DNA of 53,318 bases from a virus (taxonomy: Duplodnaviria; Caudoviricetes): the IMG/VR virus record IMGVR_UViG_3300006803_000024, positions 1 to 53,318 of that record; one strand, given 5' to 3'. The position numbers were made by a program, and so were the translations under genes. This document shows, piece after piece, positions 39,957-53,318 of the stretch; position 1 is the stretch's first letter, and every line of letters starts with the position of its first letter. The notes beneath the pieces were generated by a model, which made no database searches, was not told the DNA's origin, and worked only from the letters and a program-made list of their open reading frames with translations.

Positions 39957-40037
39957 TTTCAACTTCCTACTTATTTTGTGACCATCTCTTACCAAAGAGA
40001 TATAACTACAGTTCAGCTTCACATGGTTTTAGCACAT

Positions 40038-40108
40038 GAGTCGTAGGCGGGAATCGAACCCGCGTTCTACCAAGTCTCGGTCAACGAAAGGGAATCGAAC
40101 CCCTACTC
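40038..40108 (-). ncRNA. tRNA-like element with two tandem T-psi-C arms (not a complete tRNA)
   Basis: On the - strand, AGGGG-TTCGATT-CCCTT and GCGGG-TTCGATT-CCCGC lie in the helicase-polymerase intergenic space. Confidence 0.5.
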
Positions 40109-40120
40109 CGGTTTAGGCAT

Positions 40121-41389
40121 CTATGAAAAATACCTATCTGGAAGCTCTCCTCTGATGAAGAGGCGAGAACGTGGACGGGACAGTGCGACGTACTGGAGAC
40201 GTGCTGTCTGTTCCTTGTTAGTGGACTTACCGATGTCGGCGAGGTCAACGATGACGGAGTCATAGGTAGACCCCTGAGCCTTGTGCGTGGTGGATGCACT
40301 GACCGAACGGAGATCAGGATACCCGTTCTTGATCTTGAAGAAACGTTCCCAACTCTTTGATTGAGAGTAGAAACGTAGGACAGCTTCACGATCATTGTGG
40401 TCTGCGAAGGCCGTTACCGAATAGGTAACACCCGAATTCACATCTTCCACATCCATCATGATCATCCGGATCTCTTCGCCACTGACGAGAGATTTATCCA
40501 AGAAATCATCGGTGATCCGAACAACCCGGACAACTTGGTCCGTGTACAGTCGTTCTTTCCCCAGCAATTCAGCCGACGAGTTGTTCGAAAGAATTTCACC
40601 AACCTCATACGGCTCAGTGTAGGACCGGAGCTGTCGAATGAAGCTGTTGTACTGTATCACACGAGCATTTGTGTAAGAGAGTACACGCTTGCTGGCGTTC
40701 TCGATGAGGAACTCACGTTCCAGAATACCTTTGAGAGTGGTGCCATCGACAAAGTCAATCACACCGGGGACTTCTTTGATCCGGGTGAACTTGCCAGTCA
40801 GAACAGTCTGCTTGGCCTGCTCACAGAGATCCATGAGAGCTTGTTGATCCTTATTCCGAACTGGGACAGTCAGATTTCCAGTATCCATCTTCTGAGAATA
40901 GATCGGAGAGATGTGTTCTTTGACAGGAGCCAACTGGTTTTTATCCCCTACGAACAACACCTTACAGGTCGAGTCGATACCTTTGTTGATGTATTTGAAG
41001 AGATCACTGTTCACCATCGAACACTCATCAACAATGATGAGAGTCCCACTGTGGACAACCCACCGTGGGGTAGGCACGATTTTGACTGTGCCTGTGGAGA
41101 AATTTTCAGAGACTCGGAGGTTCATGTACGAATAGATCGTACCAATCTCTCCAGCTCTGTGAGTCATTGCGTCACTGAGGACGGCTGCTGCCTTGTTGGT
41201 TGTTGCTGTGATGGCAATGCTGTGCATCGTTTTGGTGGTCTGATGCTTCAGGATCCCATCAGCGATCTGGGAAATCAGAAAGGTTTTCCCCGTACCTGCA
41301 CCACCGGATACGTCCATGAATTGATCGGGTCCGTTGATGAACTGGATGACTTTCATGAACACGGCTTGTTGGTCTTTATTAAGTGCCAT
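40121..41389 (-). CDS. Dda/RecD-like SF1B DNA helicase
   Basis: GGAGTGKT, IIVDECSM, VGDKNQLAPV, TTHKAQGST, YVALSR. Confidence 0.93.
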   Translation of the reverse strand: MALNKDQQAVFMKVIQFINGPDQFMDVSGGAGTGKTFLISQIADGILKHQTTKTMHSIAITATTNKAAAVLSDAMTHRAGEIGTIYSYMNLRVSENFSTGTVKIVPTPRWVVHSGTLIIVDECSMVNSDLFKYINKGIDSTCKVLFVGDKNQLAPVKEHISPIYSQKMDTGNLTVPVRNKDQQALMDLCEQAKQTVLTGKFTRIKEVPGVIDFVDGTTLKGILEREFLIENASKRVLSYTNARVIQYNSFIRQLRSYTEPYEVGEILSNNSSAELLGKERLYTDQVVRVVRITDDFLDKSLVSGEEIRMIMMDVEDVNSGVTYSVTAFADHNDREAVLRFYSQSKSWERFFKIKNGYPDLRSVSASTTHKAQGSTYDSVIVDLADIGKSTNKEQTARLQYVALSRPRSRLFIRGELPDRYFS

Positions 41390-41481
41390 GTCTTTGATTT
41401 CCTTATTGAAGTAGACCCCCCGGCTTCTAACCGGGGAGTCCATCCCTGCCCGCAGGCTTCATTACCAAGCGTGGGAAACGC

Positions 41482-43860
41482 TTATCCGCATTTAGAGTGA
41501 CCACAGTCAGCACAGACTGGGCAGCCACCGGAGAGGTTGACGTTGAATCCTTTGCAGCTTGGACACTGCATCGGTTTTCCAACGGGAGTTGGGAAGTTCT
41601 CAGCAGCAGTCTCATCATAAACCTCGTCAACGATTTTGAGGTCTTTCAGATGCTGTTCCAATGTGGAACCAAGAAGGGCGATGAATGATGGAAGGTATTT
41701 GCCATCGACCCAGGCTCCGCCATTGGGATCCATAATGGATTTGAGATCTTCGATCACGAAGCTGATGTCCCCACCACGACGGAACACCGAACTCATCATC
41801 CGAGTCAAGGCCACAGTCCACTGGAAGTGGCTCATGTCTTGAGTGTTGATGAAGATTTCGAATGGGATGGTGTGTCCATCTTGATCGTAGTGGTTGTTGA
41901 TCGTGACGTAGAAATTGCTTTCCTGCCACTTCAGCTTGTAGGTCTGTCCAAAGAGAGACTTGTTCCGGACAATGGCAGTGTTTGTTGCCACTGGTTCAGG
42001 AGCCTCAGCCTTTTCAGGGGCTTCTTTCTTTGGTTCAGACTCGACGGACAGGACGGATCCAGTCACGTCATTCGGACGGTAGGTGGTGCAACCTTTGCAG
42101 CCCATCTGGTATGCCGACAGGTACACTTGCTCGAAGTCTTCAAACGAAATGTCTTCCGGACAGTTGATGGTCTTGGAGATTGATGAGTCCACCCACTTCT
42201 GAACTGCTGCCTGCATGACAAGGTGGTCATGGGGCTTCAGAGTCTGAGCTGTGACGAGATGTTCGGGATTGGGTTCTTTGTCCCAGCCCTTGTTCTCACG
42301 CCATTCGTTGTACAGGCCAACACCGTAGTCGTAGATGACTTCTTCACGCTTCGACCCATCCTTCTCCAACACCTTGCGGGTGTAGCTTGGAGCGAAGATA
42401 GGTTCGACACCTGAGCTGACGTTGCCAGCGTACAGAGAGATCGTTCCAGTCGGAGCGATGGAAGTCAGAAGAGCGTTCCGGATCCCGTGATCCAACACAC
42501 CCTGACGGATGTCGTCAGGCATGTCGATCATGAAACCAGAGTTGATGAAGCTCTCCCGTTGGGCCTTGGTCTTTGTCACCGGGCATGGGCCGAGAAGTTT
42601 GGCCAGCTCGATAGACCGACGGTATGCTTTCAGGGTGATGAGCTTCATCACACGTTCAGCGATCTCTGCTGCTTCAGGAGAACCGTACTTGATGTTCATC
42701 ATGAAGAGCATGTCGGCCAGACCAGTAATCCCAATGCCCATACGACGTTTGGCTTTCGCTTCGGCCTTCTGTTCAGGGATCGGGAAGTTGCTGATGTCAA
42801 TGATTGAGTCCAGCATATCGACTGCTTGCTCGGTCAAGAACTCCAGCTTCTTGGTGTCCACACCATTCGTATTTTCGAAAGGATCTGTCACAACCTGGGT
42901 CAGGTTGATCGAACCAAGAAGACATGCACCATAGGGTGGTAGAGGTTGCTCACCACAGGGGTTCGTGGCCGAGATTTCTTCCACGTACCAGAGGTTGTTT
43001 TTCTTGTTGATGCGGTCGATGAACAACACACCGGGTTCGGCATAGTTGTAGGTCGATTCCATCATCAATTTCCAGAGATCACGGGCCTTGACTGTCTTGT
43101 AGACGTAGACTGTGCGTCCATCATATTCCCGTGGTTTAACACCGGTTCCCGGATCCACTTCGTGGACCAGATCCCAGCTCTGGTTGTTCTGCACTGCGTG
43201 CATGAACTTGTCAGTGGCCAAGACCGAGACGTTGAACATGCGAAGACGATTGGAATCACGCTTTGCAGTGATGAAGTCTTCCACATCCGGGTGATCACAC
43301 CGCATGGTTGCCATCATGGCTCCACGACGGCTGCCAGCACTCATCACAGTGCGACACATGGCGTCCCAGACATCCATGAAAGTTAGAGGACCACTGGCAT
43401 CAGCGTCCACCCCTTTGACGGGGCTGTCCTTGGGCCGGAGAGGGCTGAAGTCATAGCCGATGCCACCGCCTTGCTGCATGGTCAAGGCTGCTTCCTTGAG
43501 CATGTCAAAGATTCCCCCCATTGAGTCAGGGATGGTTCCCATCACGTAGCAGTTGAAGAGAGTGACATTGCGTCCAGAACCAGCACCGGCTGTGATACGA
43601 CCGGCAGGCAGGAAGCCAAAGTTGTTGAGAGCTTTGCGGAATTTCTCAAGACGATAGGCTTGAAGAACCTCAAGTTCGCCTTCTTCAAGTTTCACTCCGT
43701 TGAGTTGGAGTGGTGAGAAGGCACACGCTGAGGCAATCCGGTTCCAGGTGTCTTGGACATTGCTGTCATCCTGGATGTCTGGATTGGGTGTGATCAGACG
43801 GTATTTGGCGTTCCAAATCTGCTCACAGATGGGTTGAGGGAAGGGGTTGTTTGATGACAT
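41482..43860 (-). CDS. nrdJ: Class II (adenosylcobalamin-dependent) ribonucleotide reductase with TSCPD and Zn-ribbon domains
   Basis: PAGRI, LFNCYV, GGGIGYDFS.LRP, TNPCGEQPL, CLLGSINL, IAPTGT, PFEIFIN, CPSC...CADCGHSKCG. Confidence 0.95.
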   Translation of the reverse strand: MSSNNPFPQPICEQIWNAKYRLITPNPDIQDDSNVQDTWNRIASACAFSPLQLNGVKLEEGELEVLQAYRLEKFRKALNNFGFLPAGRITAGAGSGRNVTLFNCYVMGTIPDSMGGIFDMLKEAALTMQQGGGIGYDFSPLRPKDSPVKGVDADASGPLTFMDVWDAMCRTVMSAGSRRGAMMATMRCDHPDVEDFITAKRDSNRLRMFNVSVLATDKFMHAVQNNQSWDLVHEVDPGTGVKPREYDGRTVYVYKTVKARDLWKLMMESTYNYAEPGVLFIDRINKKNNLWYVEEISATNPCGEQPLPPYGACLLGSINLTQVVTDPFENTNGVDTKKLEFLTEQAVDMLDSIIDISNFPIPEQKAEAKAKRRMGIGITGLADMLFMMNIKYGSPEAAEIAERVMKLITLKAYRRSIELAKLLGPCPVTKTKAQRESFINSGFMIDMPDDIRQGVLDHGIRNALLTSIAPTGTISLYAGNVSSGVEPIFAPSYTRKVLEKDGSKREEVIYDYGVGLYNEWRENKGWDKEPNPEHLVTAQTLKPHDHLVMQAAVQKWVDSSISKTINCPEDISFEDFEQVYLSAYQMGCKGCTTYRPNDVTGSVLSVESEPKKEAPEKAEAPEPVATNTAIVRNKSLFGQTYKLKWQESNFYVTINNHYDQDGHTIPFEIFINTQDMSHFQWTVALTRMMSSVFRRGGDISFVIEDLKSIMDPNGGAWVDGKYLPSFIALLGSTLEQHLKDLKIVDEVYDETAAENFPTPVGKPMQCPSCKGFNVNLSGGCPVCADCGHSKCG

Positions 43861-43956
43861 GGCTGTCAGTCTCCTTGATTTAGATCAATTTTGTGGGGTA
43901 GTTTAGGGATACGTTGTTAAGCACGACAGTCACTATCAATCCAGAGGAAAAATCGC

Positions 43957-44160
43957 ATGACCTCCATTAACAAACTTACCATTAAACAAGTCGCTGAAAT
44001 CAAAGCAAGAATTCTTGCTGGAGAGTATCAGCATGTTTTGGCTGCTGAGTACGAATTGAATCAGGGACGGATCAATGAGATCGCCAAAGGGAAGCGGTTC
44101 GCATATGTACCACCTGCCAAATCGTACAAGAAAGGTTCGGGTTCACGCCCTAAGCCTTGA
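43957..44160 (+). CDS. Small HTH DNA-binding protein, opposite in orientation to its neighbours
   Basis: AGAGG RBS; KLT..QV.EIK...GEYQ..LA.EY.LNQ..I..I..GK HTH pattern. Confidence 0.65.
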   Translation: MTSINKLTIKQVAEIKARILAGEYQHVLAAEYELNQGRINEIAKGKRFAYVPPAKSYKKGSGSRPKP

Positions 44161-44217
44161 AAAAAGAAAAGCCTCCACCGATCCCGTAGGAGGAAAAATC
44201 AGCGGAGGCTTTGTTTG
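44160..44217. terminator. Probable bidirectional terminator
   Basis: AAAAGCCTCC...GGAGGCTTTGTTT with A and T tracts on both sides, between convergent genes. Confidence 0.6.
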
Positions 44218-44244
44218 TCAGAAAACTAAGCATGTTTTTTCCTT

Positions 44245-44748
44245 TCACGGGAGGATGGATGTGATGGCCTTGTCCATCTCATCAAGGGACATTGACCCGA
44301 AGTTGAAGACAGGGATGCAGTAATGATCAGCCATGCGTAGAGCTTGACCTGTACCACCGACGGCCTTGCCTCCGGGAGTCCAGCAGACAATGAAGTCTGT
44401 CGGAGTTTTGAGATCAAGTCCCAGCACCTGATAGGCATTACGGGCCATGAAGTCTCGACCGGTACAACCAAGGTTGACCCAGTTTGGATGAAACTTGCTT
44501 GTGAGAAGGCGAGCTTCCTTGGTAGAACCAAAAAGAAGAGACTCGTTCCTGTTGAATACACGGTAGGGTAGATAGATTTCCATCTTCCCATTCTTGTTGA
44601 CGCAGCCAAGCTCAAAAGCTGTGTCTGCACCCGGTGCTCCACCAGATCGTAGAGTGTGACCCCAAGACGCCATGTAGCGTCCGAGTGAGGTCATCTTGTC
44701 CTTAATATCTGGAGGAGTCTCTCTTGAACCGATTCCAGTGTAAATCAT
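44245..44748 (-). CDS. SLOG/DprA-like Rossmann-fold protein
   Basis: YTGIGSRETP, LRSGGAPGAD, RNAYQVLG, VCWT, GGTGQA. Confidence 0.8.
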   Translation of the reverse strand: MIYTGIGSRETPPDIKDKMTSLGRYMASWGHTLRSGGAPGADTAFELGCVNKNGKMEIYLPYRVFNRNESLLFGSTKEARLLTSKFHPNWVNLGCTGRDFMARNAYQVLGLDLKTPTDFIVCWTPGGKAVGGTGQALRMADHYCIPVFNFGSMSLDEMDKAITSILP

Positions 44749-44981
44749 GTCAGATAATGCTTCTCGCCACAGGGAATGACTTCCCCTTTGTTGATGGAAC
44801 GCCAATAGAATTTCTCACGACGAGCATTATTACGCTCATGTTCGTTGAGAATATCAGCACTATACTCAGCACGAGTGTCTGTGCTTTCGGACTGGAGAAT
44901 GACCTCACTACCATACTGATTCAGGTAGCAGACAAGGAAGTTTTCTCCCAACCAGATAGCATCATTCCGACGACCACTCAT
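44745..44981 (-). CDS. Hypothetical protein (78 aa)
   Basis: ATGA overlaps at both ends. Confidence 0.55.
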   Translation of the reverse strand: MSGRRNDAIWLGENFLVCYLNQYGSEVILQSESTDTRAEYSADILNEHERNNARREKFYWRSINKGEVIPCGEKHYLT

Positions 44982-45154
44982 GAGAGTATCGGTTGGTAAG
45001 GACGACCACGGAAGATGGCCTTGTACCGAAGAGCTTCTTGGTTTTTCAACCACTTACGATATTCTTCTGTGTCCCTCGCAGTGGTTTGTTTGGCCAAATT
45101 AACGGCCAGATTCAGCACTGGATAGCACACGGTACAGAGTAGAGTTTTTCGCAT
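44978..45154 (-). CDS. Hypothetical 58-aa protein not in the ORF track (MRKTLLCTVCYPVLN...QPILS)
   Basis: AGGAG RBS 7 nt upstream; its stop overlaps the next ATG (ATGA); it overlaps the HNH 3' end. Confidence 0.5.
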   Translation of the reverse strand: MRKTLLCTVCYPVLNLAVNLAKQTTARDTEEYRKWLKNQEALRYKAIFRGRPYQPILS

Positions 45155-45497
45155 TGGCTTTCTCCTGATTGCGAGCGTCTCTTCGACGCTGGTTCTCTTT
45201 GTGTGTCACCATCTCAAGATGATCTGGGTTCACACACATACGGTTATTACACAGATGGTCTATCTGCTTTTTTCCCGGCACGAAACCATTCTTGTTCACG
45301 AATGAGACAATGTGAACGGCGACTGTCTGGCCATTTAGCGACATGCGGGGGTATCCTCCCCCTCTTCCGGTGCCTGAATCGGACCCCTGCCAGATGTGAC
45401 AGGGATCCCGTCGACCATTCAGTCTGAAGCCAAGATACCGGATCACGACGTTGTCCATGATCTTCTCATGGATGTCTGTTCTCCGGCACATGATCAC
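45099..45497 (-). CDS. HNH endonuclease
   Basis: CHIWQG, GYP, VH..SF, IDHLCNNRMCVNPDHLE.VT..EN. Confidence 0.88.
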   Translation of the reverse strand: MIMCRRTDIHEKIMDNVVIRYLGFRLNGRRDPCHIWQGSDSGTGRGGGYPRMSLNGQTVAVHIVSFVNKNGFVPGKKQIDHLCNNRMCVNPDHLEMVTHKENQRRRDARNQEKANAKNSTLYRVLSSAESGR

Positions 45498-46066
45498 AAC
45501 CGCTCAGTTACGAGACGACGACCCTTGAAGACCCCTTTGGGGTTGCGGTTCTTGGTCTCGGTTTCCAACACAACGTAGATGTTGTTGCTGTCAGAGATCA
45601 GCATGTCACCGACCTGCACATCGACGCCCGGAGGGACTTTGTAATGGCAGGAATAGTTGTTTTCCGTGGCCTTCACCCGGAAGGTGTCCGGGATGTCCTC
45701 TTCGAGTTGATAAAGCTTGAAGGTTTTGATCTCACCACTGTCCAGTTCGAGGATTATGTCCCCGTTGGAGGTGGTGTTCATGTAGACGCCAGCTTGAGGA
45801 GCGCCTTTGGTGGTGCGGTAACGACGAGGCATGATGTAGTTCCATTCTGTGTTGATGGGTTTGCCGTCCCAGGCTGTGAAGTCTGATACATGACGGTGAT
45901 ACGAATTGGCTTCACGATAGTTCTTGTAATGCCAAGGGGTGATTCTGTAATAGTCTTCACGACGAGCGTAGACGGCATACAGCTCTTCGGCCTCACTGAT
46001 GTGAAGGACGATCATCGGGGTCCGGCCCCGGTTGAGACGCACTATATCTCCAACTCTATGGGTCAT
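45494..46066 (-). CDS. Hypothetical protein
   Basis: GGAG RBS before ATG 46066; N-terminal VGDIVRL SH3/KOW-like motif. Confidence 0.6.
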   Translation of the reverse strand: MTHRVGDIVRLNRGRTPMIVLHISEAEELYAVYARREDYYRITPWHYKNYREANSYHRHVSDFTAWDGKPINTEWNYIMPRRYRTTKGAPQAGVYMNTTSNGDIILELDSGEIKTFKLYQLEEDIPDTFRVKATENNYSCHYKVPPGVDVQVGDMLISDSNNIYVVLETETKNRNPKGVFKGRRLVTERL

Positions 46067-46067
46067 C

Positions 46068-46235
46068 TTAGATGACTCCAAAGAAGAGCATCAGTCCACG
46101 GATTGTTCCAACAGGACCAACAAATATGTCAGCCATGAGCCATCCGATATTACTGTTGCTTGCATCATGGATTACAGCAGTGAGCCACATGGCAAACACA
46201 AAAAGAGCGAATACGAGTATAGTGAGTTCTTTCAT
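46068..46235 (-). CDS. Small membrane protein (55 aa)
   Basis: AGGAG RBS; two hydrophobic segments; PVG.IRG motif. Confidence 0.6.
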   Translation of the reverse strand: MKELTILVFALFVFAMWLTAVIHDASNSNIGWLMADIFVGPVGTIRGLMLFFGVI

Positions 46236-46312
46236 CTTAATTCTCCTACGAAGGTTAAATTTTCCCCAGATTTTGCTTGCACACATTAGAACAAATAGAG
46301 AACGGGGTATTT

Positions 46313-46449
46313 AGTCTGGCCCCCTGCCTTGTCAGTCATCGGATTACTTTTTCGCTTATGTCCATGGAGCGACTAGCTGTCTTATACCGAGGGTGAGGGG
46401 TTGGAGCATGGACTAATCCGTTGCTGCCAAACTGGTTTCCGAAGAAACC
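46313..46449 (-). ncRNA. Candidate structured RNA domain: UUCG hairpin plus a long nested hairpin
   Basis: GGTTTC-TTCG-GAAACC, then nested stems AGTTTGGC/GCCAGACT, CGGATTA/TAATCCG and GTCCATG/CATGGAC. Confidence 0.5.
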
Positions 46450-46450
46450 A

Positions 46451-46488
46451 AAAAAGAAAAACCCTACCGGATCTCTCCGATAGGGTTT
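46451..46488 (-). terminator. Rho-independent terminator
   Basis: AAACCCTATCGGA-GAGA-TCCGGTAGGGTTTTTCTTTTTT. Confidence 0.8.
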
Positions 46489-46675
46489 GGTCAGCTCCAG
46501 CAACTGTCAGAATCACGGATTAGCATCCGCTCCTTAACAGCGACTGGTCACTGTGATCAGGTATCCCAGTGCCAGCAAGTTCGCACTAATGACAGTTTTG
46601 AGGCTGTCCTCTAGCCGCCTTCCACTGCTCCATGCAGGGCGCGAAAAACCGACTGGTCACTGAGAATGTGGAAGG
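46489..46675 (-). ncRNA. Candidate ~200-nt small RNA with a 13-nt direct repeat
   Basis: No long ORF; bounded by a promoter and a terminator; multiple hairpins; CAGTGACCAGTCG occurs twice (46650-46662 and 46541-46553). Confidence 0.55.
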
Positions 46676-46676
46676 T

Positions 46677-46705
46677 GACTTAGATCAAGAGGGATCTTCT
46701 GTCAA
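46677..46705 (-). promoter_or_regulatory. sigma70-type promoter
   Basis: Perfect TTGACA, 17-nt spacer, TAAGTC; directly downstream of a terminator. Confidence 0.6.
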
Positions 46706-46716
46706 CTTAAAAACCA

Positions 46717-46743
46717 AGAAAAAGCCGGGGAAAGACCCCGGCT
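46717..46743 (-). terminator. Rho-independent terminator
   Basis: AGCCGGGG-TCTTT-CCCCGGCT followed by TTTTCTT. Confidence 0.8.
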
Positions 46744-46755
46744 GATTCCCTCTTG

Positions 46756-46866
46756 TCATTCCGCTGTGAACCAGCGTTCGTACAGGGCTTTGACCCAAGT
46801 CGGTTGAGGAAGAACGTTCCATCCGACGATGAGTCCTGCCCCGAAGAACAGGATTGCTTCGATCAT
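46756..46866 (-). CDS. 36-aa membrane peptide not in the ORF track (MIEAILFFGAGLIVGWNVLPQPTWVKALYERWFTAE)
   Basis: ATGA overlap with the upstream phosphoesterase stop; AAGG upstream; ends just before a terminator. Confidence 0.65.
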   Translation of the reverse strand: MIEAILFFGAGLIVGWNVLPQPTWVKALYERWFTAE

Positions 46867-48023
46867 AGGAATACCTTTCGTGGTTTGTCCTGAAGGAGTA
46901 GAGGCTTCAAGTTTACCTTTTTGCGGTCCACTTCGCCATCCTCTTTGTGCAGAGTGACTGCACAGATCCCTCCACGGGTGAAGAGACCCTTCATTTGCGC
47001 CCAGTTGTTGGGTTTGGCCAAGGTCCGGAAGTGCTCTGCATCAGCCCCTACGAGCTGTTTTTGCTTGTCGTGGTGGACGTGAGCTGTCCAGATGAACCGC
47101 CAATACTTGGCCTTGGCCCATGCGTCTGGGAACTGGTCTGAGAAGACATCCTTGAGGCTTTCCCATTTGCATTTGTCCCCGTGGTGAGGGAACACAGCAC
47201 ACTTGCCCCAGGGAATCACACGGAAGTTGTCATCACTGACAACCACATTCACACGAGGATCGTCTTTGAAATGGGCATCCAGAGCCACCATGACACCGAT
47301 ATAAGCTGTTTCGTCATGGTTCCCCCGGAGAAGGTGGACTTCGACTTCCTGATGCTTCTGGAGGAGTAGACCGATGGTATAACGCATGATGTTCATGGCA
47401 TTGATCGTGTTGTCGAGATGGTTTTCCCGAATCACATCACATTCGTTGCCAGAAGCAGGAGTCAATCCTTTGTGATCATTGGCGTCCAAGAGGTCGCCCA
47501 TGTCCAGTAGGACTGCTTTGTGAGCCAGAGGAAGATTGTGCATCAAGCGGGTGATTGCTGCATACACTGCGTCGAGGTACTTGGGATCCCCGTATTGTCC
47601 GCCAACGTGAAGATCACACAGGGGGATGAAGTTGCAGAGGTCTTTGGGTAGCTCATAGGTGGGAGGAGGCGTAGGAGCGGCTCGTGGAGCCTGTGTGAGA
47701 GCGTCAATGAGGGTCTGTGCTACATCGACTGGTTCTTCTTCTTCTGGTTTGATCTGGTAGCGTACAGAGTTCCGTACAATCGTACCATCAGAGAGGGTTT
47801 CCTGAACGATTCGCCAACCACCAGTGACAACCCTTCCACCCAGACCAGTTGCGTCCATTGCTGATTGAAGTCCGGGATCTGCCTCCTCGTAGACTAGAGC
47901 AGCTCTGATTGACTCGGTGATTGTGGAACGATGAACCCCGGCAATTTCGGCTACTTTGGAGAAGTTCTCGTCATGCTCACGCCACAGTTTGAGACGTTCC
48001 GCTTGAATCGGAGTAATGGGCAT
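46863..48023 (-). CDS. Calcineurin-like metallophosphoesterase with an N-terminal HTH
   Basis: DLHVG, MGDLLD, RGNHD, HHGD, AHVHH motifs; N-terminal SKVAEIAGVHRSTI HTH. Confidence 0.85.
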   Translation of the reverse strand: MPITPIQAERLKLWREHDENFSKVAEIAGVHRSTITESIRAALVYEEADPGLQSAMDATGLGGRVVTGGWRIVQETLSDGTIVRNSVRYQIKPEEEEPVDVAQTLIDALTQAPRAAPTPPPTYELPKDLCNFIPLCDLHVGGQYGDPKYLDAVYAAITRLMHNLPLAHKAVLLDMGDLLDANDHKGLTPASGNECDVIRENHLDNTINAMNIMRYTIGLLLQKHQEVEVHLLRGNHDETAYIGVMVALDAHFKDDPRVNVVVSDDNFRVIPWGKCAVFPHHGDKCKWESLKDVFSDQFPDAWAKAKYWRFIWTAHVHHDKQKQLVGADAEHFRTLAKPNNWAQMKGLFTRGGICAVTLHKEDGEVDRKKVNLKPLLLQDKPRKVFL

Positions 48024-48071
48024 ATGGCCATCCTTACTTTTATTATAGAAAGATGTGGACAACCATTGGGT

Positions 48072-48125
48072 GAAACATACCGTGGTAAGAGACTCACACT
48101 AGGTGTGACTACCACGGTATGTTTC
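48072..48125. repeat. Perfect 16-bp inverted repeat enclosing a second 6-bp hairpin
   Basis: GAAACATACCGTGGTA ... TCACAC-TAG-GTGTGA ... TACCACGGTATGTTTC. Confidence 0.85.
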
Positions 48126-48137
48126 TGCTTTCAAAGC

Positions 48138-50297
48138 TTAAAACCACCGTCCCTCGATAGTAATGGAAACAGTAACTATGGATGCTGAAGTCTCATTAGA
48201 ATATCGGAAAGCAGTTATGTTTAGTAGATCGGTAATGGTCACGCCTGATGCAGATACAGTGACTGCTCGTGTATCATCTGCGTTGTTTGATACATAAGGT
48301 GTCATAGCAACAGAAAGAGGGAATGATACAAATGGTAGAGGAAATGTAAAATCCAGCGGAGTAGTTTTATAAGGGTCCGTTACAGTGCCATCCCCCAAAG
48401 CATTGCTTGCACCAAGAGAGAATGTAGCAACAAGTTTCATACGACCATCATTGTATTTTGTCCAATATCCGGTTGTATTGCTGGTTCCTCCTTTGGAGTG
48501 AACATCAGGCAAATACTGAATACCTCTCAAATGAGAGTCAACAATAGTACCTGCACCTTCTGTCTCAAACTCAAGAAACTCAGTGTTAGAGGGTCTGTCT
48601 GGACTACCCACAAAAGGTCCAACAATCAAACCAGAAAAGTCTGTATCTGGTTCCGTGGCTATGGCTACGATTCTCGTATCACCAGCAGTCATCAAAGCAT
48701 TAGAAACTATATGATGGAAACTGTAGAATCGAACATCTGTGAAGTCAAAGAAGCAATTCGTGAAAGAGGAGCTGTAAGCACAGTCTTTTTCAATAACTAT
48801 TTGACGAGACCAGCTATGCATATTGTTACATTGTACAGATCCAAAAGACCCAACAATAAGACCAATATCTTGACCACTTGAAATGTTTACACCATCTATC
48901 ATTGCATCAGCGGTATAGATACCAACACCGAAGTTCTGCATAGAACCTCCAATGGTGATTTGACCTGAGATAGTGTCACTCAAAGTAATCCCAGTAACTA
49001 CTGCAAATTCAAGTGTTGAAGGGGTGTCTTGATATTCAGTGCTGTTACGACGAAGAGTTACAGTTTCTGAGATTGGATTGTTTTTTGCATAGTCAGCAAA
49101 CCCTGTAATTGTAACAGAAACGCCTGCATCAACTTTAGGGAAACTCAAACGAGTACATATTTTTGTTGGAGCAACTGGAGACACCCACTCACCAGAAACA
49201 ACCTCACTGCCTGTAAGAGCAAGAGGAATATTGGTTCCAGTAGTTGGTGTGTGTTTTAAGACAATACCATTACCCAGAAAAGGTTTTTCAAGATTCCGGT
49301 AAGTGCTTGAACTATGGTAAACATTGTTCAAAAACTGAAGAAAAACATTTTTGGTTTTATAGGGGTATGTACTGCCAACTCGGTTTTTATCGCCAAAAGA
49401 GGTGAGATCACCAAAGCATTTGAAACCAATGTGGTAAACATTTCCTTCTACTCGGGAATGAGCAGTGTTTTCCCAAAAACGCCCACCAGTGGCATAGTTA
49501 CAGTCAATGAAAAAAGACTTCTCAAATGTGATCGAACGAATACGAAGATCTTGTGCTTCAGAGCCAACGTCTGCGTTCAAACGATCAGCGATAACAAAAG
49601 CGTATCCGGGCATACCAGCAGCAATACTGGTCCAAGTACCGTTTGGATCACAAGAGATGTACCCATTACGAAGACTAAGACCGTAAAACCAACCTGCACC
49701 CAAGCCATTTACTCGACCAATAATAATTGGTGAGGAAATCAACATATTCTCCCCAAGGCAATCAATGGCGGGAGAAATTCCTGCATTGATTACCTCATTA
49801 GAGGTAATCGTTGAACCACTGAAATTTGCAGAAAATCTCAAAGCAGATTTGAAAGCTTCAGTCATATCCGTAACAAGAGGCGTGGTATTATCCATGTAAT
49901 GTTGAGGACTGATAGCCATATCGGGTCCAACTTTAGGAAGCCAATTTGGGATGTCAGTAATACCTGTACTGCCTGTTGATTTATAGAAGTACAGAACAGT
50001 CTCTTTATAAGAGACCCCCATCACATAATCATTTGGAAGAGTATCGAATACTCCGTTGGCATTGTCAGTGACAAATTGAGCACGATTGGGATACACATTA
50101 CTATTTAAAAGACTCTGAACAGAATCTGATAATGTTTGAGCTGAATTAGCAGCGACTTGAGCTGAAGCCGCAGCATTTTCTGCTGCAACTCTGTTAGATT
50201 CATCATTGATAATGATATAGGAAGTAGGATCACCTACATTCACATCAAAATTTGTATCAGTATCTGTTGATACGGTGATGGTAAAGTTATCCAGCAT
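48138..50297 (-). CDS. Second tail fibre/tailspike-like protein
   Basis: AAENAAASAQ.AA stalk, DMTEAFKSAL pectin-lyase-type entry, beta-helix-like core, C-terminal GYWTKYNDG...FTFPLPFVS..GRW fibre-tip domain; AT-rich. Confidence 0.7.
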   Translation of the reverse strand: MLDNFTITVSTDTDTNFDVNVGDPTSYIIINDESNRVAAENAAASAQVAANSAQTLSDSVQSLLNSNVYPNRAQFVTDNANGVFDTLPNDYVMGVSYKETVLYFYKSTGSTGITDIPNWLPKVGPDMAISPQHYMDNTTPLVTDMTEAFKSALRFSANFSGSTITSNEVINAGISPAIDCLGENMLISSPIIIGRVNGLGAGWFYGLSLRNGYISCDPNGTWTSIAAGMPGYAFVIADRLNADVGSEAQDLRIRSITFEKSFFIDCNYATGGRFWENTAHSRVEGNVYHIGFKCFGDLTSFGDKNRVGSTYPYKTKNVFLQFLNNVYHSSSTYRNLEKPFLGNGIVLKHTPTTGTNIPLALTGSEVVSGEWVSPVAPTKICTRLSFPKVDAGVSVTITGFADYAKNNPISETVTLRRNSTEYQDTPSTLEFAVVTGITLSDTISGQITIGGSMQNFGVGIYTADAMIDGVNISSGQDIGLIVGSFGSVQCNNMHSWSRQIVIEKDCAYSSSFTNCFFDFTDVRFYSFHHIVSNALMTAGDTRIVAIATEPDTDFSGLIVGPFVGSPDRPSNTEFLEFETEGAGTIVDSHLRGIQYLPDVHSKGGTSNTTGYWTKYNDGRMKLVATFSLGASNALGDGTVTDPYKTTPLDFTFPLPFVSFPLSVAMTPYVSNNADDTRAVTVSASGVTITDLLNITAFRYSNETSASIVTVSITIEGRWF

Positions 50298-50715
50298 GGT
50301 TAGTCACATCCTCTTGTACAACAATTTTGAAGGTATTTGTTGATCTTACACCTTCCCCAGGGACAGTGAATTCTACATCACAATCATAGCTTCTTGGAGA
50401 CCACCCCTGTGTATCTGCACTAAGCGCAGACAATGTAAACAGGTTTAGAGGACTTCCTGGTTTTGTGACTGTAAATGCCTGTGTAAGAGTTCCACACCAT
50501 CTCATTTCTGATTCGATTGTCCAATTTGTAATGTCTACAAGGATTGCAGCATTGTAGGTATCAAGTGCATTTTGTACATCAACTGTAGATACAGGATCTG
50601 CGGCCATGGTGGTAGCGAGGTCATTTGCGGCTTGGATAGCCCCTGAAGTCTCTACGTTGGTTACATAGAGATTTATAGAGAAATCATCACCTTGTTTAGT
50701 AGTGACAGTGCCCAT
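50287..50715 (-). CDS. BppU-like tail/baseplate adaptor protein
   Basis: KQGDDF, DITNWTIESEMR, YDCDVEF, STNTF.I.V..DVT motifs; overlaps the fibre start. Confidence 0.6.
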   Translation of the reverse strand: MGTVTTKQGDDFSINLYVTNVETSGAIQAANDLATTMAADPVSTVDVQNALDTYNAAILVDITNWTIESEMRWCGTLTQAFTVTKPGSPLNLFTLSALSADTQGWSPRSYDCDVEFTVPGEGVRSTNTFKIVVQEDVTNHAG

Positions 50716-50757
50716 GTTACAATACACCTTTTGTTGCGTTTGGTCGGTCTTAGCATG

Positions 50758-50790
50758 AAAAAAGAGACGGGGGAATACCCCCCGTCTCTC
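50758..50790 (-). terminator. Rho-independent terminator after thyX
   Basis: GAGACGGGGG-GTATT-CCCCCGTCTC followed by TTTTTT. Confidence 0.85.
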
Positions 50791-50795
50791 TGTTG

Positions 50796-52208
50796 TCAAC
50801 CGTAAAGGTCGAACAATGCTTGCACTTGAGCGTTCTCGCTCTTGGACATGCCTTGCACTTCTCCACCTGTGATCAAAGACTCGATCATCAAAGGTGTGAG
50901 TTTCACCGACTCACGCTCACGCATGTACGCGGCGTAAACCAATGGGAAGAAGTGTTCCACTGCCTCGCCGATCAGACGAGCGTAGACACGAATTTCCCAT
51001 TGAGCATGATCATCGTCCCGCAGATACAGGAATTTGATCAGGTTGCTGATGTCCATTTTCCAGACACATTCGGTGTATGTGTTCAGAGGCAGGACGATCC
51101 GGGCCGTCTCACGAGAGACATCCCGACGCAGGAGTTCCTCGTAATGATCGAAGGAATCGTTGGACGAGCGTTCGATCAGCTTGCGTGCTTCCAGTGCATC
51201 TTCCACAGGAAGAGGTTCACCAGACATCTGCTTGTTGATCAGCCCCTGATACATGATCTTCTCGATCTCAGGGACATAGAACAGACGAACCATCTCCGAG
51301 TACCGGCCTGAGTATTCGTTCAGGTTGGCTGTCCGATGGCGAACCAACTGACGCATGACGAAGATGGGGAGACGCATGTGGAACCGGATCTCACCCATCT
51401 CCAGAGGAGACGTATGATGATTCCGAACCAGATAGTTGATCAGGCCAGCATCGTTGTTCACTTTCTTGGTTCCACGACCGTAGGACATACGGGCCGACTC
51501 AGCGATCTCCACGTCAGATCCCATGACTTCTTTCACTTCAAAGAAACCATGGTCAAGGACTTGGATAGCGTTGGCCGGTTTGTCTGTCCATTCCAGACGC
51601 TCACCAAGTTCAGGTGCTTCTTCCGCAGGAAGAGATGCTTTGTAGATCTCGGCATCAATCTTGGAATTTGCTGGGTGATAGTAGTTCACGTCATACCCTT
51701 GGTGGTGAAGAATTTCCTGAAGAGTGCGAACAACATCAATGAGTTTCCCTTCAGGGCCGTTGTTGTCGATGAACATGTCAGCATGTTCACGAGTCATCTC
51801 CATGGATTCCGGCCCCTCAAGAGGAAGTCGGTTGCAAGCATCAACCCAGATCACATGATCGAAGACTTTCTTCTCCATGCAGGCTTGCCATTCCCGGACA
51901 CGACGCATACCGACGTACATGTCGTTCCCTTCCTGGATCATCTCTGAACCAGTGCGAGAAGCATCCGGAGTGTTGTATGCCTCGATCAGATCACCCCAGG
52001 TAGACCGGAAGTTCACACGATCTTCGAACATTGCCTCATAGGAGTCGTAGCGTTCCTTGCCCCACATGGGCCAGATTGCCTTACGACCGACGAAATCCGA
52101 CGAAGATGAGAACTTGAGTCCCATCTTGTCGGCAATCATTTCGGCCACGGTGTCTTTGCCATGCCTCCCATGACCAATGATAAGTAACTTGGGTTTCTGC
52201 TTATCCAT
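50796..52208 (-). CDS. thyX: Fusion of a dNMP-kinase-like P-loop domain and flavin-dependent thymidylate synthase
   Basis: N-terminal IIGHGRHGKDTVA, GMR..RE, FIDNNG; C-terminal ARMSY, HTSPLE, RQLVRHRTANLNEYSGRY, AR..LP, LRDDDHAQWEIR. Confidence 0.9.
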   Translation of the reverse strand: MDKQKPKLLIIGHGRHGKDTVAEMIADKMGLKFSSSSDFVGRKAIWPMWGKERYDSYEAMFEDRVNFRSTWGDLIEAYNTPDASRTGSEMIQEGNDMYVGMRRVREWQACMEKKVFDHVIWVDACNRLPLEGPESMEMTREHADMFIDNNGPEGKLIDVVRTLQEILHHQGYDVNYYHPANSKIDAEIYKASLPAEEAPELGERLEWTDKPANAIQVLDHGFFEVKEVMGSDVEIAESARMSYGRGTKKVNNDAGLINYLVRNHHTSPLEMGEIRFHMRLPIFVMRQLVRHRTANLNEYSGRYSEMVRLFYVPEIEKIMYQGLINKQMSGEPLPVEDALEARKLIERSSNDSFDHYEELLRRDVSRETARIVLPLNTYTECVWKMDISNLIKFLYLRDDDHAQWEIRVYARLIGEAVEHFFPLVYAAYMRERESVKLTPLMIESLITGGEVQGMSKSENAQVQALFDLYG

Positions 52209-52671
52209 GGATGTTTCCGTTCAGAGCGATACGAAGAGTGTTCATCGTGTCTTCGATTTCAGTGGTGAGCTGTTTGTTTTGCTCAGACAACTCAGAGATG
52301 GCGATCTCAGCTTGCTGAAGCAGAGCGTTTTTCCGACCAACTGCTTGGACGAGATCTACTTTCTCGTCTTGGTATCTCAGCAGAGTTTCGATCGAGCTAT
52401 TGCTGATCAGTGCTGTCATCTGAGCGATGATCAGGATTACCTCTTTCTGCTCAACGATATGGTCACGAGCACGAGCATGACGCTCTTTCTCACGATCCAA
52501 CAGATCTTGCAGAGCAATCTGGGAACGAGCGATGTCATCACCAGTGAAGCCCATGAGGTCGATACGCTTGCCCTGCTTGTGTGCAGCAGCAACCTGACGA
52601 CGGACTTCTTTCATGCGAACACGAGGGTCCACATCAACGACGGTCATGGATTTGGTTTGAGTCTTGGACAT
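52201..52671 (-). CDS. Hypothetical coiled-coil protein
   Basis: GAGGAG RBS before ATG 52671; heptad-rich. Confidence 0.65.
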   Translation of the reverse strand: MSKTQTKSMTVVDVDPRVRMKEVRRQVAAAHKQGKRIDLMGFTGDDIARSQIALQDLLDREKERHARARDHIVEQKEVILIIAQMTALISNSSIETLLRYQDEKVDLVQAVGRKNALLQQAEIAISELSEQNKQLTTEIEDTMNTLRIALNGNIHG

Positions 52672-52789
52672 TTTGGTCTCCTCGGAGGGTTTGAAAATTA
52701 GGTAATTGTGCAAGCTCTTGGTATGACAAAGGTCCAGTTATGCCATTCGGCCATGTTACATTTACCCAGTAACCCTCACCGGACTTCAT
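52634..52789 (-). CDS. Possible small hypothetical protein (start uncertain)
   Basis: Open frame filling the gap between dcd and the coiled-coil gene. Confidence 0.3.
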   Translation of the reverse strand: MKSGEGYWVNVTWPNGITGPLSYQELAQLPNFQTLRGDQNVQDSNQIHDRR

Positions 52790-52868
52790 TATCCGGAAAG
52801 GGATTTGGTACAGATACAGCCAGCGAGTTGCTTCAACCGTATCAGAGAGGAACAGGAATCTCAGCGTG

Positions 52869-53318
52869 TTATGCGAGAGCTGTCTGGGGTTTATCGGCAG
52901 CGTTCTGGTACTTGCCGTCGCCATAGTCACCATCCTCCTCTAGACGACCATACAGCACCTGTGCGATGCCCTGACCGGGAAGGATCTCCATGTTCTCGTG
53001 GCCATGGTAGACCAGTTCGAGAGTCAATTTCCCATTCCATCCCGGCTCGATCACCGTGTTGAACACGCTCAGTCCTTGACGCGCCCAAGTGGACTTGTCC
53101 TTGACTGTTCCCACAAGATTGTGGGGTGTTTGGAAACGTTCAATGGTCGAAGCCAAAACGAAATGTCCCATGAAGGTCTCTTCTTCACCTGTTTCCGGGT
53201 CAAGTACGACCGTCCGAGCACCATAGGCGTCATTCACGAACTTGACTGACTGCTTGATGCGGATGTCATATCCGGCCTCTGCAAGGCCGTATGACGTTCC
53301 CTCGTAGCGAATCTTCTC
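52869..53318 (-). CDS. dcd: dCTP deaminase/dUTPase family protein, 5'-truncated by the window
   Basis: Frame is open to the window end (…SYGLAEAGYDIRI); LASTIERF, DKSTWARQG, IEPGWNG.LTLEL, IAQV, YGDGKYQ. Confidence 0.88.
   Translation of the reverse strand, partial: EKIRYEGTSYGLAEAGYDIRIKQSVKFVNDAYGARTVVLDPETGEEETFMGHFVLASTIERFQTPHNLVGTVKDKSTWARQGLSVFNTVIEPGWNGKLTLELVYHGHENMEILPGQGIAQVLYGRLEEDGDYGDGKYQNAADKPQTALA

What the first reader, a model, noticed from the sequence alone, without database searches (positions are those of the whole stretch)
46489..46705. Stand-alone non-coding transcription unit with an exact 13-nt direct repeat: candidate novel phage sRNA
Seen on the - strand, in order: upstream terminator, TTGACA-N17-TAAGTC promoter, ~200 nt with no ORF longer than ~15 codons found by eye, strong terminator. 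Inside are CCTTCCAC/GTGGAAGG arms enclosing the first CAGTGACCAGTCG, hairpins GACAG/CTGTC and AGTGC/GCACT, a second CAGTGACCAGTCG 109 nt later, and the hairpin CGGAT-GCTA-ATCCG. Dedicated promoter and terminator in a compact genome imply function. Inference: a two-site decoy or sponge RNA (antitoxin mimic, protein titration or antisense seed). An 11-codon ORF (AAGGAG-CGG-ATG, MLIRDSDSCWS) ending at the terminator is an alternative reading.
Basis: partly seen in the sequence, partly recalled or inferred. Interest (0 to 1): 0.75.

Follow-up and report, generated by a model that had tools for sequence, protein, structure and literature searches.

The report
Modular hairpin RNA in N4-like phage
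A short gene-free stretch of an uncultured N4-like phage encodes a folded RNA built from two copies of one stem-loop module plus a terminator, a new but small RNA family whose job is still unknown.

Summary
On the minus strand, the two strongest terminator-like hairpins in the 20 kb scanned (33400-53318) bracket about 230 nt with no supported ORF. An exact 13-mer occurs twice.

The 13-mers are not free "seed" sites. Each is the 5' strand of the basal helix of a stem-loop module: D1 at 46661-46567 and D3 at 46552-46492. A covariance model built from D3 alone finds D1, and finds three such modules in a related contig.

D3 is conserved in four lineages (24 pairs, 97.9% of cells paired, 8 pairs with compensatory changes). 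Its terminator T2 is also conserved (13 pairs, 100% paired, 5 compensatory). Invariant G-U pairs make the fold specific to the gene-sense strand, which fits an RNA.

No Rfam family matches. The 11-codon ORF is not conserved.

The phage belongs to the N4-like roseophage group. In relatives the element lies just upstream of rIIA, which this record lacks. Closer and more distant relatives lack the element, so it is accessory.

The TTGACA promoter has a poor -10 and is missing from three relative lineages (retained in one near-identical population variant). No expression data exist.

Best reading: a new structured phage non-coding RNA, probably acting through its repeated bulged-A helices. The function is inferred, not shown.

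The parts
46723..46743 (-). T1: intrinsic-terminator-like hairpin plus T tract, closing the exonuclease and 36-aa ORF unit
   Evidence: 8 pairs, 7 G-C, loop 5, tail TTTTCTTGGT. The same hairpin follows the 36-aa ORF in L002, L014 and L024.
46677..46705 (-). Putative host-type promoter: TTGACA (46705-46700), 17-nt spacer, TAAGTC (46682-46677)
   Evidence: Read directly. Not called by the promoter scan. The -10 matches TATAAT at 2 of 6 positions. Retained in the X12 population variant. Absent from L002, L014 and L024.
46567..46661 (-). Module D1. The basal helix pairs the first 13-mer (46662-46650) with CTTGCTGGCACTG (46579-46567), leaving one bulged A. The 71-nt apical part is lineage-specific.
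   Evidence: MFE fold. The model built from D3 alone matches this stretch end to end at 26 bits, E 1.8e-4. L024 module 1 has CCAA/TTGG where the window has CCAG/CTGG.
46554..46566 (-). Single-stranded linker (ATACCTGATCACA) between the modules
   Evidence: Unpaired in the MFE and centroid folds. GGATACC follows the module in L024 too.
46492..46552 (-). Module D3: a conserved 61-nt irregular hairpin. The second 13-mer forms its 5' base, it has a 4-nt loop, and it contains the CGGAT-GCTA-ATCCG hairpin.
   Evidence: Alignment A4 of 6 distinct sequences from 4 lineages: 24 pairs, 97.9% of cells paired, 8 pairs with changes on both sides. 0 of 500 shuffles reached the observed paired fraction or covariation score, and 2 of 500 reached the count of 8 such pairs. 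Slid controls gave 30-44% paired. Earlier alignment A2 gave 20 pairs, 100% paired, 6 with changes on both sides.
46448..46490 (-). T2: intrinsic terminator (13-bp stem, loop GAGA) plus tract TTTTTCTTTTTTGG
   Evidence: Across 3 lineages: 13 pairs, 100% paired, 5 pairs with changes on both sides; 0 of 500 shuffles.
46491..46526 (-). 11-codon ORF MLIRDSDSCWS (rejected as a gene)
   Evidence: ATG in 2 of 6 aligned rows; no third-position bias (7/5/6). The X12 variant changes the ATG to ATT (46524 C>A on the plus strand).

Best explanation
The stretch is a gene for a structured non-coding RNA of about 215 nt. It sits as an accessory cassette between two strong terminators in an N4-like (Schitoviridae, roseophage-group) phage.

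The RNA is modular:
- a short CU-rich 5' end;
- stem-loop module D1;
- a 13-nt linker;
- stem-loop module D3;
- then, 4 nt further on, the terminator T2.

D1 and D3 are paralogues. They share one basal helix (5' CAGUGACCAGUCG paired with 3' UUGCUGG-CACUG or UUGCUGG-AGCUG) with an invariant bulged A. That shared helix is why an exact 13-mer appears twice.

Shown here:
- the fold of D3 and T2 is maintained by compensatory substitutions;
- the fold is strand-specific;
- the module is repeated two or three times per locus;
- the element is dispensable and shuffled among close relatives;
- it matches no known RNA family.

Inferred:
- In this phage it is transcribed on its own, from the TTGACA promoter by host RNA polymerase, and ends at T2.
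- It acts in trans as a stable RNA. Its repeated, sequence-conserved bulged-A helices and conserved D3 apex would be docking sites for a protein, so it would work as a decoy or sponge, or possibly as a processing substrate. Base-pairing through a free seed looks less likely.
For: Structure:
- D3 has 24 pairs, 97.9% of cells paired, and 8 pairs changed on both sides. One 4-bp helix has four different Watson-Crick versions: CTGT/ACAG, ATTC/GAAT, TCTC/GAGA, TGTT/AACA. 0 of 500 shuffles reached the observed paired fraction or covariation score. Slid registers gave 30-44% paired.
- T2 has 13 pairs, 100% paired, 5 changed on both sides.
- Four G-U pairs are invariant in D3. They would be A-C mismatches on the other strand, so the fold belongs to the gene-sense strand.
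- The MFE z-score is -5.25.

Paralogy:
- The model made from D3 alone hits window D1 (E 1.8e-4) and L024 modules 1 and 2 (E 3.3e-4 and 1.8e-4). It hits nothing in the other 24 loci searched and gives no credible match in 5 whole related phage records: 4 had none and 1 had weak matches only (best E 0.057, 16 bits).

Non-coding:
-.

Not an attenuator:
- The 3' strand of D3 stays the same while the T2 stems differ between lineages. No covarying antiterminator pairing is therefore available.

Independent of rIIA:
- Relatives have the element directly upstream of rIIA. This record has no rIIA match yet keeps D1, D3 and T2.

Transcription unit:
- T1 and T2 are the two best terminator-like sites on this strand in the 20 kb scanned (33400-53318).
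- A perfect -35 lies 17 nt downstream of the T1 stem and is kept in a population variant.

Precedent:
- Small non-coding RNAs from an intergenic hotspot were reported in the N4-like phage LUZ7 (PMC9163698, passages read).
Against: - No expression evidence of any kind. All 16 listed runs are DNA.
- The -10 is poor, and the promoter is missing from L002, L014 and L024. The 'own promoter' may be a recent, lineage-specific acquisition, or not a promoter at all.
- Covariation rests on only 4 lineages (6 distinct sequences). The tool warns that related sequences can beat shuffles without any structure.
- No partner protein or target is known. The protein-docking mechanism is pure inference from the repetition and the bulged A.
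- GGA motifs are only mildly enriched: 8 observed against 3.8 +/- 1.7 expected, with 36 of 2000 shuffles reaching 8.
- G-T wobbles also form in single-stranded DNA hairpins, so strand specificity alone does not prove an RNA.
- One population variant (X12) lacks or replaces 83 nt of D1. D1 may therefore not be needed.
Confidence: 0.45

Rival explanations
1. A cis-acting transcript-boundary element rather than a free RNA. The hairpins and T2 would form the structured 3' end of upstream messages, or the leader of downstream ones. They would serve as an RNase III or processing site, or as a barrier to exonucleases.
For: - In cultured roseophages, the structured non-coding stretch before rIIA starts right after the stop codon of the upstream gene, with no terminator between. 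It ends in a strong terminator 20-40 nt before the rIIA ribosome-binding site.
- L002, L014 and L024 have no TTGACA promoter.
- D3 is a helix of about 22 bp, roughly two turns. That this is the size RNase III favours is recalled, not tested.
Against: - In the window and its close relatives, a strong terminator (T1) separates the element from the upstream genes.
- The element persists where rIIA is gone.
- The apical sequence of D3 is conserved far beyond what a stability hairpin needs.
- Two or three repeated modules are not needed for a 3' end.
Confidence: 0.25
2. Selfish or neutral palindromic repeats (MITE-like units with 13-bp terminal inverted repeats), or recombination linkers that shuffle cassettes. 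They would have no RNA function of their own.
For: - The modules look like inverted-repeat units of 61-95 bp, in tandem, inside a hypervariable region.
- Small ORFs and the element itself come and go in that region: L010 lacks the element; the X12 variant lacks both the 36-aa and the 72-aa ORFs.
- Cassette borders carry a conserved tail, TTTTCTTTTTTGG.
Against: - There are only 2 modules in the 53-kb record, both at this locus.
- The repeat pattern occurs in no prokaryote genome scanned, and elsewhere in IMG/VR only in the L024 contig.
- Each hairpin keeps its own pairing through compensatory changes and invariant G-U pairs. Transposase-bound DNA ends would not require that.
Confidence: 0.1
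3. A transcription attenuator or riboswitch-like leader. The promoter, structured leader and terminator would control the genes downstream (rIIA in relatives, the 72-aa ORF here). The two 13-mers would give alternative pairings.
For: - The order promoter, 200-nt structured RNA, terminator, then genes on the same strand is the classical anatomy.
- The 3' strand of D1 can pair with the second 13-mer instead (-15.9 kcal/mol for the 39-nt segment).
- L024, L002 and L014 carry a short ORF with a strong ribosome-binding site inside the leader.
Against: - No pairing competes with the T2 stem. T2 changes sequence between lineages while the neighbouring D3 strand does not.
- About 165 nt lie between the T2 tract and the next start codon here.
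- The short-ORF peptides share only the residues MKR.
- No Rfam riboswitch or leader matches.
Confidence: 0.08
4. A DNA-level element. Strand-specific single-stranded DNA hairpins would serve as promoters for the phage polymerases (as in N4 and LUZ7) or as priming or origin signals.
For: - N4-like phages use DNA hairpin promoters. LUZ7 middle promoters are GC-rich hairpins with stems of at least 6 bp and loops of 3-4 nt (PMC9163698, passages).
- The apical hairpin of D3 is 6 bp with a 4-nt loop and has a conserved sequence.
Against: - A terminator begins about 25 nt after any start site such a hairpin would direct.
- Compensatory changes extend over 24 pairs with bulges, far beyond a 6-bp promoter hairpin.
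- The element is absent from close relatives (L010, L012) and from all cultured roseophage loci searched. It therefore cannot be an essential origin or a general promoter.
Confidence: 0.07
5. One or more very small proteins, for example MLIRDSDSCWS or the peptides ending in CWH or CWS that are open in L024.
For: - The frame ..LIR[DN]S..CW.. is open in all 6 aligned D3 rows.
- In L024, modules 1 and 2 are open from GTG to TGA in the same frame (read).
- AAGGAG lies before the ATG in the window.
Against: - A start codon is present in 2 of 6 rows, and L014 has no start at all. The X12 variant has ATT.
- Variable columns fall 7/5/6 by codon position.
- The spacing between the ribosome-binding site and the ATG is only 3 nt.
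- Residues change exactly where stems covary.
- Window D1 is not open in that frame.
- No PHROG family matches.
Confidence: 0.05

Closest known systems
Putative sRNA1-3 from the orf69-orf70 intergenic hotspot of the N4-like Pseudomonas phage LUZ7 (PMC9163698; passages read)
   Same: Both are in an N4-like phage. Both are short (under 250 nt) non-coding transcripts from one intergenic spot, end at terminators, and have unknown function.
   Different: LUZ7's RNAs were seen as transcripts and ours was not. No sequence or structural relation was tested or is expected. The genomic position differs. Nothing in the passages read describes a repeated module.
Morons and the promoter-terminator mobile cassettes of T4-type phages (PeSL).
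   Same: A self-contained unit bounded by a terminator and a promoter, sitting between conserved genes in a hyperplastic region, present or absent among close relatives.
   Different: Those cassettes carry protein genes. Here the cargo is a structured RNA. The conserved border is the terminator tail (TTTTCTTTTTTGG), not an early promoter.
Multi-hairpin protein-sponge RNAs such as CsrB or RsmZ, and bulged-A coat-protein operators (recalled)
   Same: A sequence-conserved hairpin unit is repeated within one small RNA that ends in a terminator. An invariant bulged A in a helix is a classic protein-recognition feature.
   Different: GGA motifs are only mildly enriched and are not placed in loops. 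No Rfam match to any such family. No partner protein is known.
Structured non-coding cassettes upstream of rIIA in cultured N4-like roseophages (DSS3phi2, EE36phi1, AX, V13, DFL12phi1). These were found here and are not annotated in the records.
   Same: They occupy the same genomic position. Each has a closing stem beginning UCUCAG, then a GGAUA-like linker, then a strong terminator. The DSS3phi2-type consensus fold has 50 pairs, 14 of them with changes on both sides, in 4 phages. L014 and L024 combine a V13-type module with D3.
   Different: The D-module model finds nothing in them. Homology of the window's D1 to the DSS3phi2-type stem is a resemblance seen by eye only.

Membership tests
Any Rfam 15 family | Covariance-model score at or near the family's gathering threshold | tested here: not met
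   The best matches over 45500-47500 score 12-22 bits against thresholds of 45-68. There was no match at E<=1 in 9 related loci. In 8 further loci, only terminator-like chance matches far below threshold appeared.
Intrinsic (Rho-independent) terminator (T1, T2) | G+C-rich stem-loop followed directly by a U tract on the transcribed strand, with the stem kept by compensatory change | tested here: met
   (the two top-ranked sites). T2 has 13 pairs, 100% paired, 5 with changes on both sides. Actual termination was not measured.
Sigma-70-type promoter | -35 and -10 hexamers at 16-18 nt spacing, with A2 and T6 in the -10 | tested here: inconclusive
   The -35 matches 6 of 6 and the spacer is 17 nt. 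The -10 TAAGTC matches 2 of 6 and lacks T6, and the scan did not list it. A resemblance of TCTAAGTC to an alphaproteobacterial -10 consensus is recalled only. Absent from L002, L014 and L024.
Trans-acting base-pairing sRNA | A conserved single-stranded seed complementary to target mRNAs | tested here: not met
   The conserved parts are base-paired. The duplex energies of the 5' end, the linker and the D3 loop against the whole record (-19.5 to -22.6 kcal/mol) are no better than those of shuffled seeds (-17.9 to -23.9). The host genome is unknown, so host targets were not tested.
Riboswitch or transcription attenuator | A terminator stem that competes with an alternative (antiterminator) pairing, conserved across homologues | tested here: not met
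   The T2 stems differ between lineages while the adjacent D3 strand is constant. No Rfam leader or riboswitch matches.
Small protein-coding gene | Conserved start codon and frame, with substitutions biased to third codon positions | tested here: not met
   ATG in 2 of 6 rows; variable columns 7/5/6 by codon position; no PHROG family for 6 candidate ORFs.
MITE-like or REP-like dispersed palindromic repeat | Many dispersed copies in a genome | tested here: not met
   There are 2 modules in the record, both at this locus. The pattern gave 0 matches in genome contigs and occurs elsewhere only in the L024 contig in viral contigs.
Type I toxin-antitoxin pair (small membrane peptide plus RNA) | The RNA is complementary to the toxin mRNA, and the two co-occur | tested here: not met
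   No complementarity above the shuffled controls. The X12 variant keeps D3 but lacks both the 36-aa and the 72-aa ORFs.

The most novel reading that the evidence does not exclude
The repeated bulged-A helix is a docking site, and the RNA is a phage-made decoy. It would titrate or misdirect a host RNA-binding or nuclease component, such as a defence nuclease or RNase. It would be carried as a shufflable RNA 'moron' in the same accessory hotspot as the anti-exclusion genes rIIA and rIIB. Module number (1-3) and apical parts would then evolve fast under an arms race. On this reading, the different structured cassettes at this position in cultured roseophages, and the tRNA-like RNA in L026 and L027, would be alternative cargoes of one RNA-based counter-defence locus.
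Probability: 0.12. Interest if true: 0.8.

Novelty: new member of a known kind. Interest (0 to 1): 0.5.

Why it matters
Very few non-coding RNAs of lytic phages are defined, and I found none described for N4-like roseophages, which are abundant in marine and estuarine waters. Two literature searches found nothing on the subject; a third search returned only unrelated hits.

This locus gives a compact RNA motif supported by covariation. It has a clear modular logic: one basal helix, exchangeable tops, and one to three copies.

It also points to a wider and so far unannotated pattern. The gap before rIIA in this phage group regularly holds structured RNA cassettes that end in a strong terminator. 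Several of those phages are in culture (DSS3phi2, V13, DFL12phi1, AX), so the question of what these RNAs do can be tested directly.

If the RNA proves to be a protein decoy, it would add an RNA-based accessory function to a phage family known mainly for its unusual polymerases.

Tried and rejected
Searches that found nothing or were unavailable:
- blastn (distant mode) of 46300-46900 against 50,697 phage records: no match.
- Motif scans of IMG/VR returned only contigs already known (the L002 and L024 contigs).
- Two pattern scans of 185,579 species genomes returned nothing.
- 'No RNA holder listed' among 16 sequencing runs, so expression is untested.
- Laying contigs of 4 DNA runs gave population variants but cannot show transcripts. 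Parts without cover are not evidence.

Ideas tested and dropped:
- Antisense targets inside the phage record: none better than shuffled seeds.
- CsrA-type sponge: GGA enrichment is mild, there is no Rfam match, and CsrA being uncommon in alphaproteobacteria is recalled only.
- Complementarity of CGGATTAG (46425-46418) to the D3 loop: it occurs in the window only and is not conserved in L002, so it was dropped.
- First-reader arms CCTTCCAC/GTGGAAGG: real, but they compete with the D1 basal helix, which is the conserved one.
- Essential origin or general promoter: rejected, because L010, L011, L012 and the cultured phages lack the module.

Alignment and counting slips:
- My first pair count included a mis-registered outer helix, which scored 30% paired. 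It was corrected.
- The second fold_alignment was cut badly for one row, and I draw nothing from it beyond the shared hairpin.
- The global alignment A5 was uninformative in the modular middle part.

Literature:
- The search returned only unrelated hits.
- Supplements of PMC9163698 could not be seen. They may list the LUZ7 sRNA coordinates.
Full report
**What the sequence shows**

Read on the minus strand, the region runs in this order:
- the end of a 399-aa exonuclease gene (46863-48062; phrog_704);
- an overlapping 36-aa membrane-peptide ORF (46756-46866; phrog_20849);
- a G+C-rich terminator-like hairpin, T1 (46743-46723);
- TTGACA (46705-46700), 17 nt, then TAAGTC (46682-46677);
- about 190 nt without a supported ORF;
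- a 13-bp terminator hairpin, T2 (46488-46459), with a T tract.

After T2 come about 165 nt and then a 72-aa ORF (46286-46068), a 195-aa ORF and an HNH endonuclease gene.

The 13-mer CAGTGACCAGTCG occurs exactly twice in the whole 53-kb record, at 46662-46650 and 46553-46541. A repeat that long arose in 1 of 2000 shuffles of the 225-nt stretch.

T1 and T2 are the two top-ranked terminator-like sites on this strand in the 20 kb scanned (33400-53318). The RNA folds far better than shuffles: -95 kcal/mol, z = -5.25, 0 of 200 shuffles as good.

The -10 hexamer is poor (2 of 6) and the scan does not list the site as a promoter. There are also 24-, 44- and 55-codon ORFs with GTG or TTG starts, none with a PHROG family.

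**What genome this is**

The window is a whole IMG/VR virus record estimated to be 72% complete.
- It encodes a 3661-aa virion RNA polymerase (phrog_2206, E = 0).
- Its major capsid protein is 62-64% identical to those of N4-like roseophages such as Sulfitobacter phage phiCB2047-B and Roseobacter phage RD-1410W1-01 (Schitoviridae, Rhodovirinae).
- The minus-strand arm holds replication and nucleotide-metabolism genes: ribonucleotide reductase, thymidylate synthase and a DprA-like protein.

**Relatives of the element**

Using the exonuclease as bait I obtained 1 IMG/VR locus and 11 metagenome loci. Using rIIA as bait I obtained 15 IMG/VR loci.
- Of the 12 exonuclease-baited loci, 2 (L004 and L009) are cut off at or just after the end of the exonuclease gene and cannot be judged.
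- The 3' part of the element is present in 7 of the 10 that can be judged: L002/L013 (one contig), L005-L008 and L014.
- It is also present in the rIIA-baited L024.
- It is absent from L010, L011 and L012, whose exonucleases are 79%, 63% and 72% identical to the window's.
- That gives four lineages with the element: the window, L024, L014 and the L002 group.

In L002 and L024 (and, judging by L014's identical downstream sequence, in L014) the gene after T2 is rIIA. The window record has no rIIA match, yet it keeps the element.

Contigs of four DNA runs add population variants:
- X12 keeps the promoter region, D3 and T2. It lacks or replaces 46567-46649, and it lacks both small ORFs.
- X10 covers 46449-46662 with 32 differences.
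- Several variants join a terminator tail directly to 46306, as in L010.

The region is therefore a cassette-shuffling hotspot and the element is dispensable.

**The conserved fold**

The conserved core is a 61-nt irregular hairpin, D3 (46552-46492), directly followed by T2.
- In the 6-sequence alignment A4, my structure has 24 pairs, 97.9% of cells paired and 8 pairs with changes on both sides.
- 0 of 500 column shuffles reach the observed paired fraction or covariation score, and 2 of 500 reach the count of 8 pairs.
- The same structure slid by 1-3 columns gives 30-44% paired and at most 1 such pair.
- One four-pair helix exists in four fully different Watson-Crick versions.
- RNAalifold found the same helix independently.
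- T2 has 13 pairs, all paired, with 5 changed on both sides among three lineages. The L002 group carries a different terminator at the same place.

Four G-U pairs are invariant, so the fold is good only on the gene-sense strand.

Caveat: there are only four lineages, and relatedness can inflate such counts.

**What the 13-mer repeat is**

The minimum-free-energy fold pairs the first 13-mer with CTTGCTGGCACTG (46579-46567). It pairs the second with TTGCTGGAGCTG (46503-46492). In each case one A is left bulged.

L024 has three units with the same two strands, and the pairs covary: CCAA/TTGG in its units 1 and 2, CCAG/CTGG in unit 3.

A covariance model built only from D3 matches, end to end with the apical part treated as an insertion:
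- window 46661-46567 (26 bits, E 1.8e-4);
- L024 units 1 and 2 (25 and 26 bits).

It matches nothing else in 27 sources totalling 148 kb. In 5 whole related phage records, 4 have no match and 1 has weak matches only, the best at E 0.057 and 16 bits.

The exact repeat is thus the 5' strand of the basal helix of two paralogous stem-loop modules, not a pair of free binding sites. The apical part of D1 (71 nt here, 42 nt in L024) is not conserved. The apex of D3 (UAAGGRR-CGGRU-NYUA-AUCCGY-RA-UUCUG) is nearly invariant.

**Coding?**

The 11-codon ORF has its ATG in 2 of 6 aligned rows (GTC or ATC in the others), and L014 offers no start codon. The X12 variant reads ATT. Variable columns fall 7/5/6 on codon positions 1/2/3.

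A frame ending in Cys-Trp is open in all D3 rows and in L024 units 1 and 2. This follows from the conserved strand UUGYUGG. Window D1 is not open in that frame. I reject coding, with a small residual doubt.

**Known families**

There is no Rfam match near threshold in the window or in 17 related loci. The motif is absent from the representative prokaryote genomes scanned by pattern.

**How it may work**

An attenuator is unlikely. T2 changes sequence between lineages while the adjacent D3 strand does not, so there is no conserved competing pairing.

A base-pairing regulator is unsupported. The conserved parts are paired, and no site in the phage record binds the unpaired parts better than shuffled seeds do. 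Host targets are untestable without a host.

An essential DNA element is excluded by its absence from close relatives.

What remains is a stable structured RNA whose repeated, sequence-conserved helix with an invariant bulged A, together with its conserved D3 apex, look like recognition surfaces. Two readings fit:
- It is a free RNA made from its own promoter, acting as a protein decoy or sponge. This is my best reading, at about 0.45.
- It is a cis-acting processing or stability structure at a transcript boundary, at about 0.25.

The missing promoter in relatives, and the 3'-UTR-like position of the analogous cassettes in cultured phages, favour the second.

**Wider pattern (beyond the finding)**

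In all 7 cultured roseophages inspected, a strong terminator lies either 20-40 nt before the rIIA ribosome-binding site or before a small ORF that precedes rIIA. The phages are phiCB2047-B, R7L, RPP1, V13, DSS3phi2, RD-1410W1-01 and AX. In most of them, 70-290 nt of unannotated non-coding sequence precedes it.
- A DSS3phi2-type cassette, present in DSS3phi2, EE36phi1, AX and L030, has a consensus fold of 50 pairs, 14 of them with changes on both sides.
- A V13-type cassette occurs in V13, DFL12phi1, AX and L032, and is fused to D3 in L014 and L024.
- L026 and L027 have a tRNA-like sequence there that neither ARAGORN nor Rfam calls.

The only related report I found is of putative small RNAs in the N4-like phage LUZ7 (PMC9163698, passages read). 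Searches for roseophage or Schitoviridae small RNAs found nothing relevant.

**Verdict**

This is a real, conserved, previously undescribed structured RNA element: a new member of the class of phage non-coding RNAs. It is narrowly distributed, accessory, and of unknown function. Its expression and its promoter are unproven.

Noticed in passing
L016 190-460 (-), L017-L022 about 1150-1500, L028-L037 about 600-900: Cultured N4-like roseophages carry unannotated structured non-coding cassettes ending in a strong terminator just upstream of rIIA. There are two types: a DSS3phi2 type (50-pair consensus fold, 14 pairs with changes on both sides in 4 phages) and a V13 type. Phage AX has both in tandem.
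   Followed up: partly
L026 and L027, about 700-880 (upstream of rIIA): A tRNA-like sequence of about 175 nt with a 7-bp acceptor-like stem, a canonical T arm (GGTTCGAATCC) and a 3' CCA. Neither ARAGORN nor Rfam calls it.
   Followed up: partly
window, whole record; compare L002 3630-7142: The record has no match to rIIA, although relatives have rIIA-rIIB between the element and the homologue of the 195-aa ORF. L010 also goes from the exonuclease straight to that homologue. The record is only 72% complete, so relocation cannot be excluded.
   Followed up: partly
window 46448-46460 and 46711-46722; L024, L025, L033, L035, L021: Terminator tails share a near-fixed sequence, TTTTCTTTTTTGG(T), across several uncultured relatives. 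That is more than a plain U tract needs. It may be a recombination linker or a polymerase signal at cassette borders.
   Followed up: no
window 46756-46866 and 46068-46286 (-): The 36-aa and 72-aa membrane-peptide ORFs (phrog_20849, phrog_7319) are each replaced by 15-30 nt in the X12 population variant. They are indel cassettes.
   Followed up: no
L002 about 3338-3367, L014 about 604-678, L024 518-595: Short ORFs with a strong AAGGAG-type ribosome-binding site, all starting MKR, encode otherwise unrelated peptides of 9, 24 and 25 residues. In L024 the ORF runs exactly through hairpin module 2.
   Followed up: partly
L024 593-616: An extra 7-bp hairpin (GAGGATA/TATCCTC) whose loop CCTAA resembles the loop of D3 (CCTA followed by AT).
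   Followed up: no
window 40040-40126 (-): A tRNA-Gly (CCC) gene lies between replication genes.
   Followed up: no
window 45099-45497 (-): A free-standing HNH endonuclease gene (phrog_1872). Sulfitobacter phage phiCB2047-B has no such gene annotated in the corresponding stretch downstream of its 195-aa homologue.
   Followed up: no
L016 300-400 (-) (phiCB2047-B, upstream of rIIA): A 9-nt direct repeat, CTGCTGAAG, occurs twice 34 nt apart inside the non-coding stretch before the terminator.
   Followed up: no
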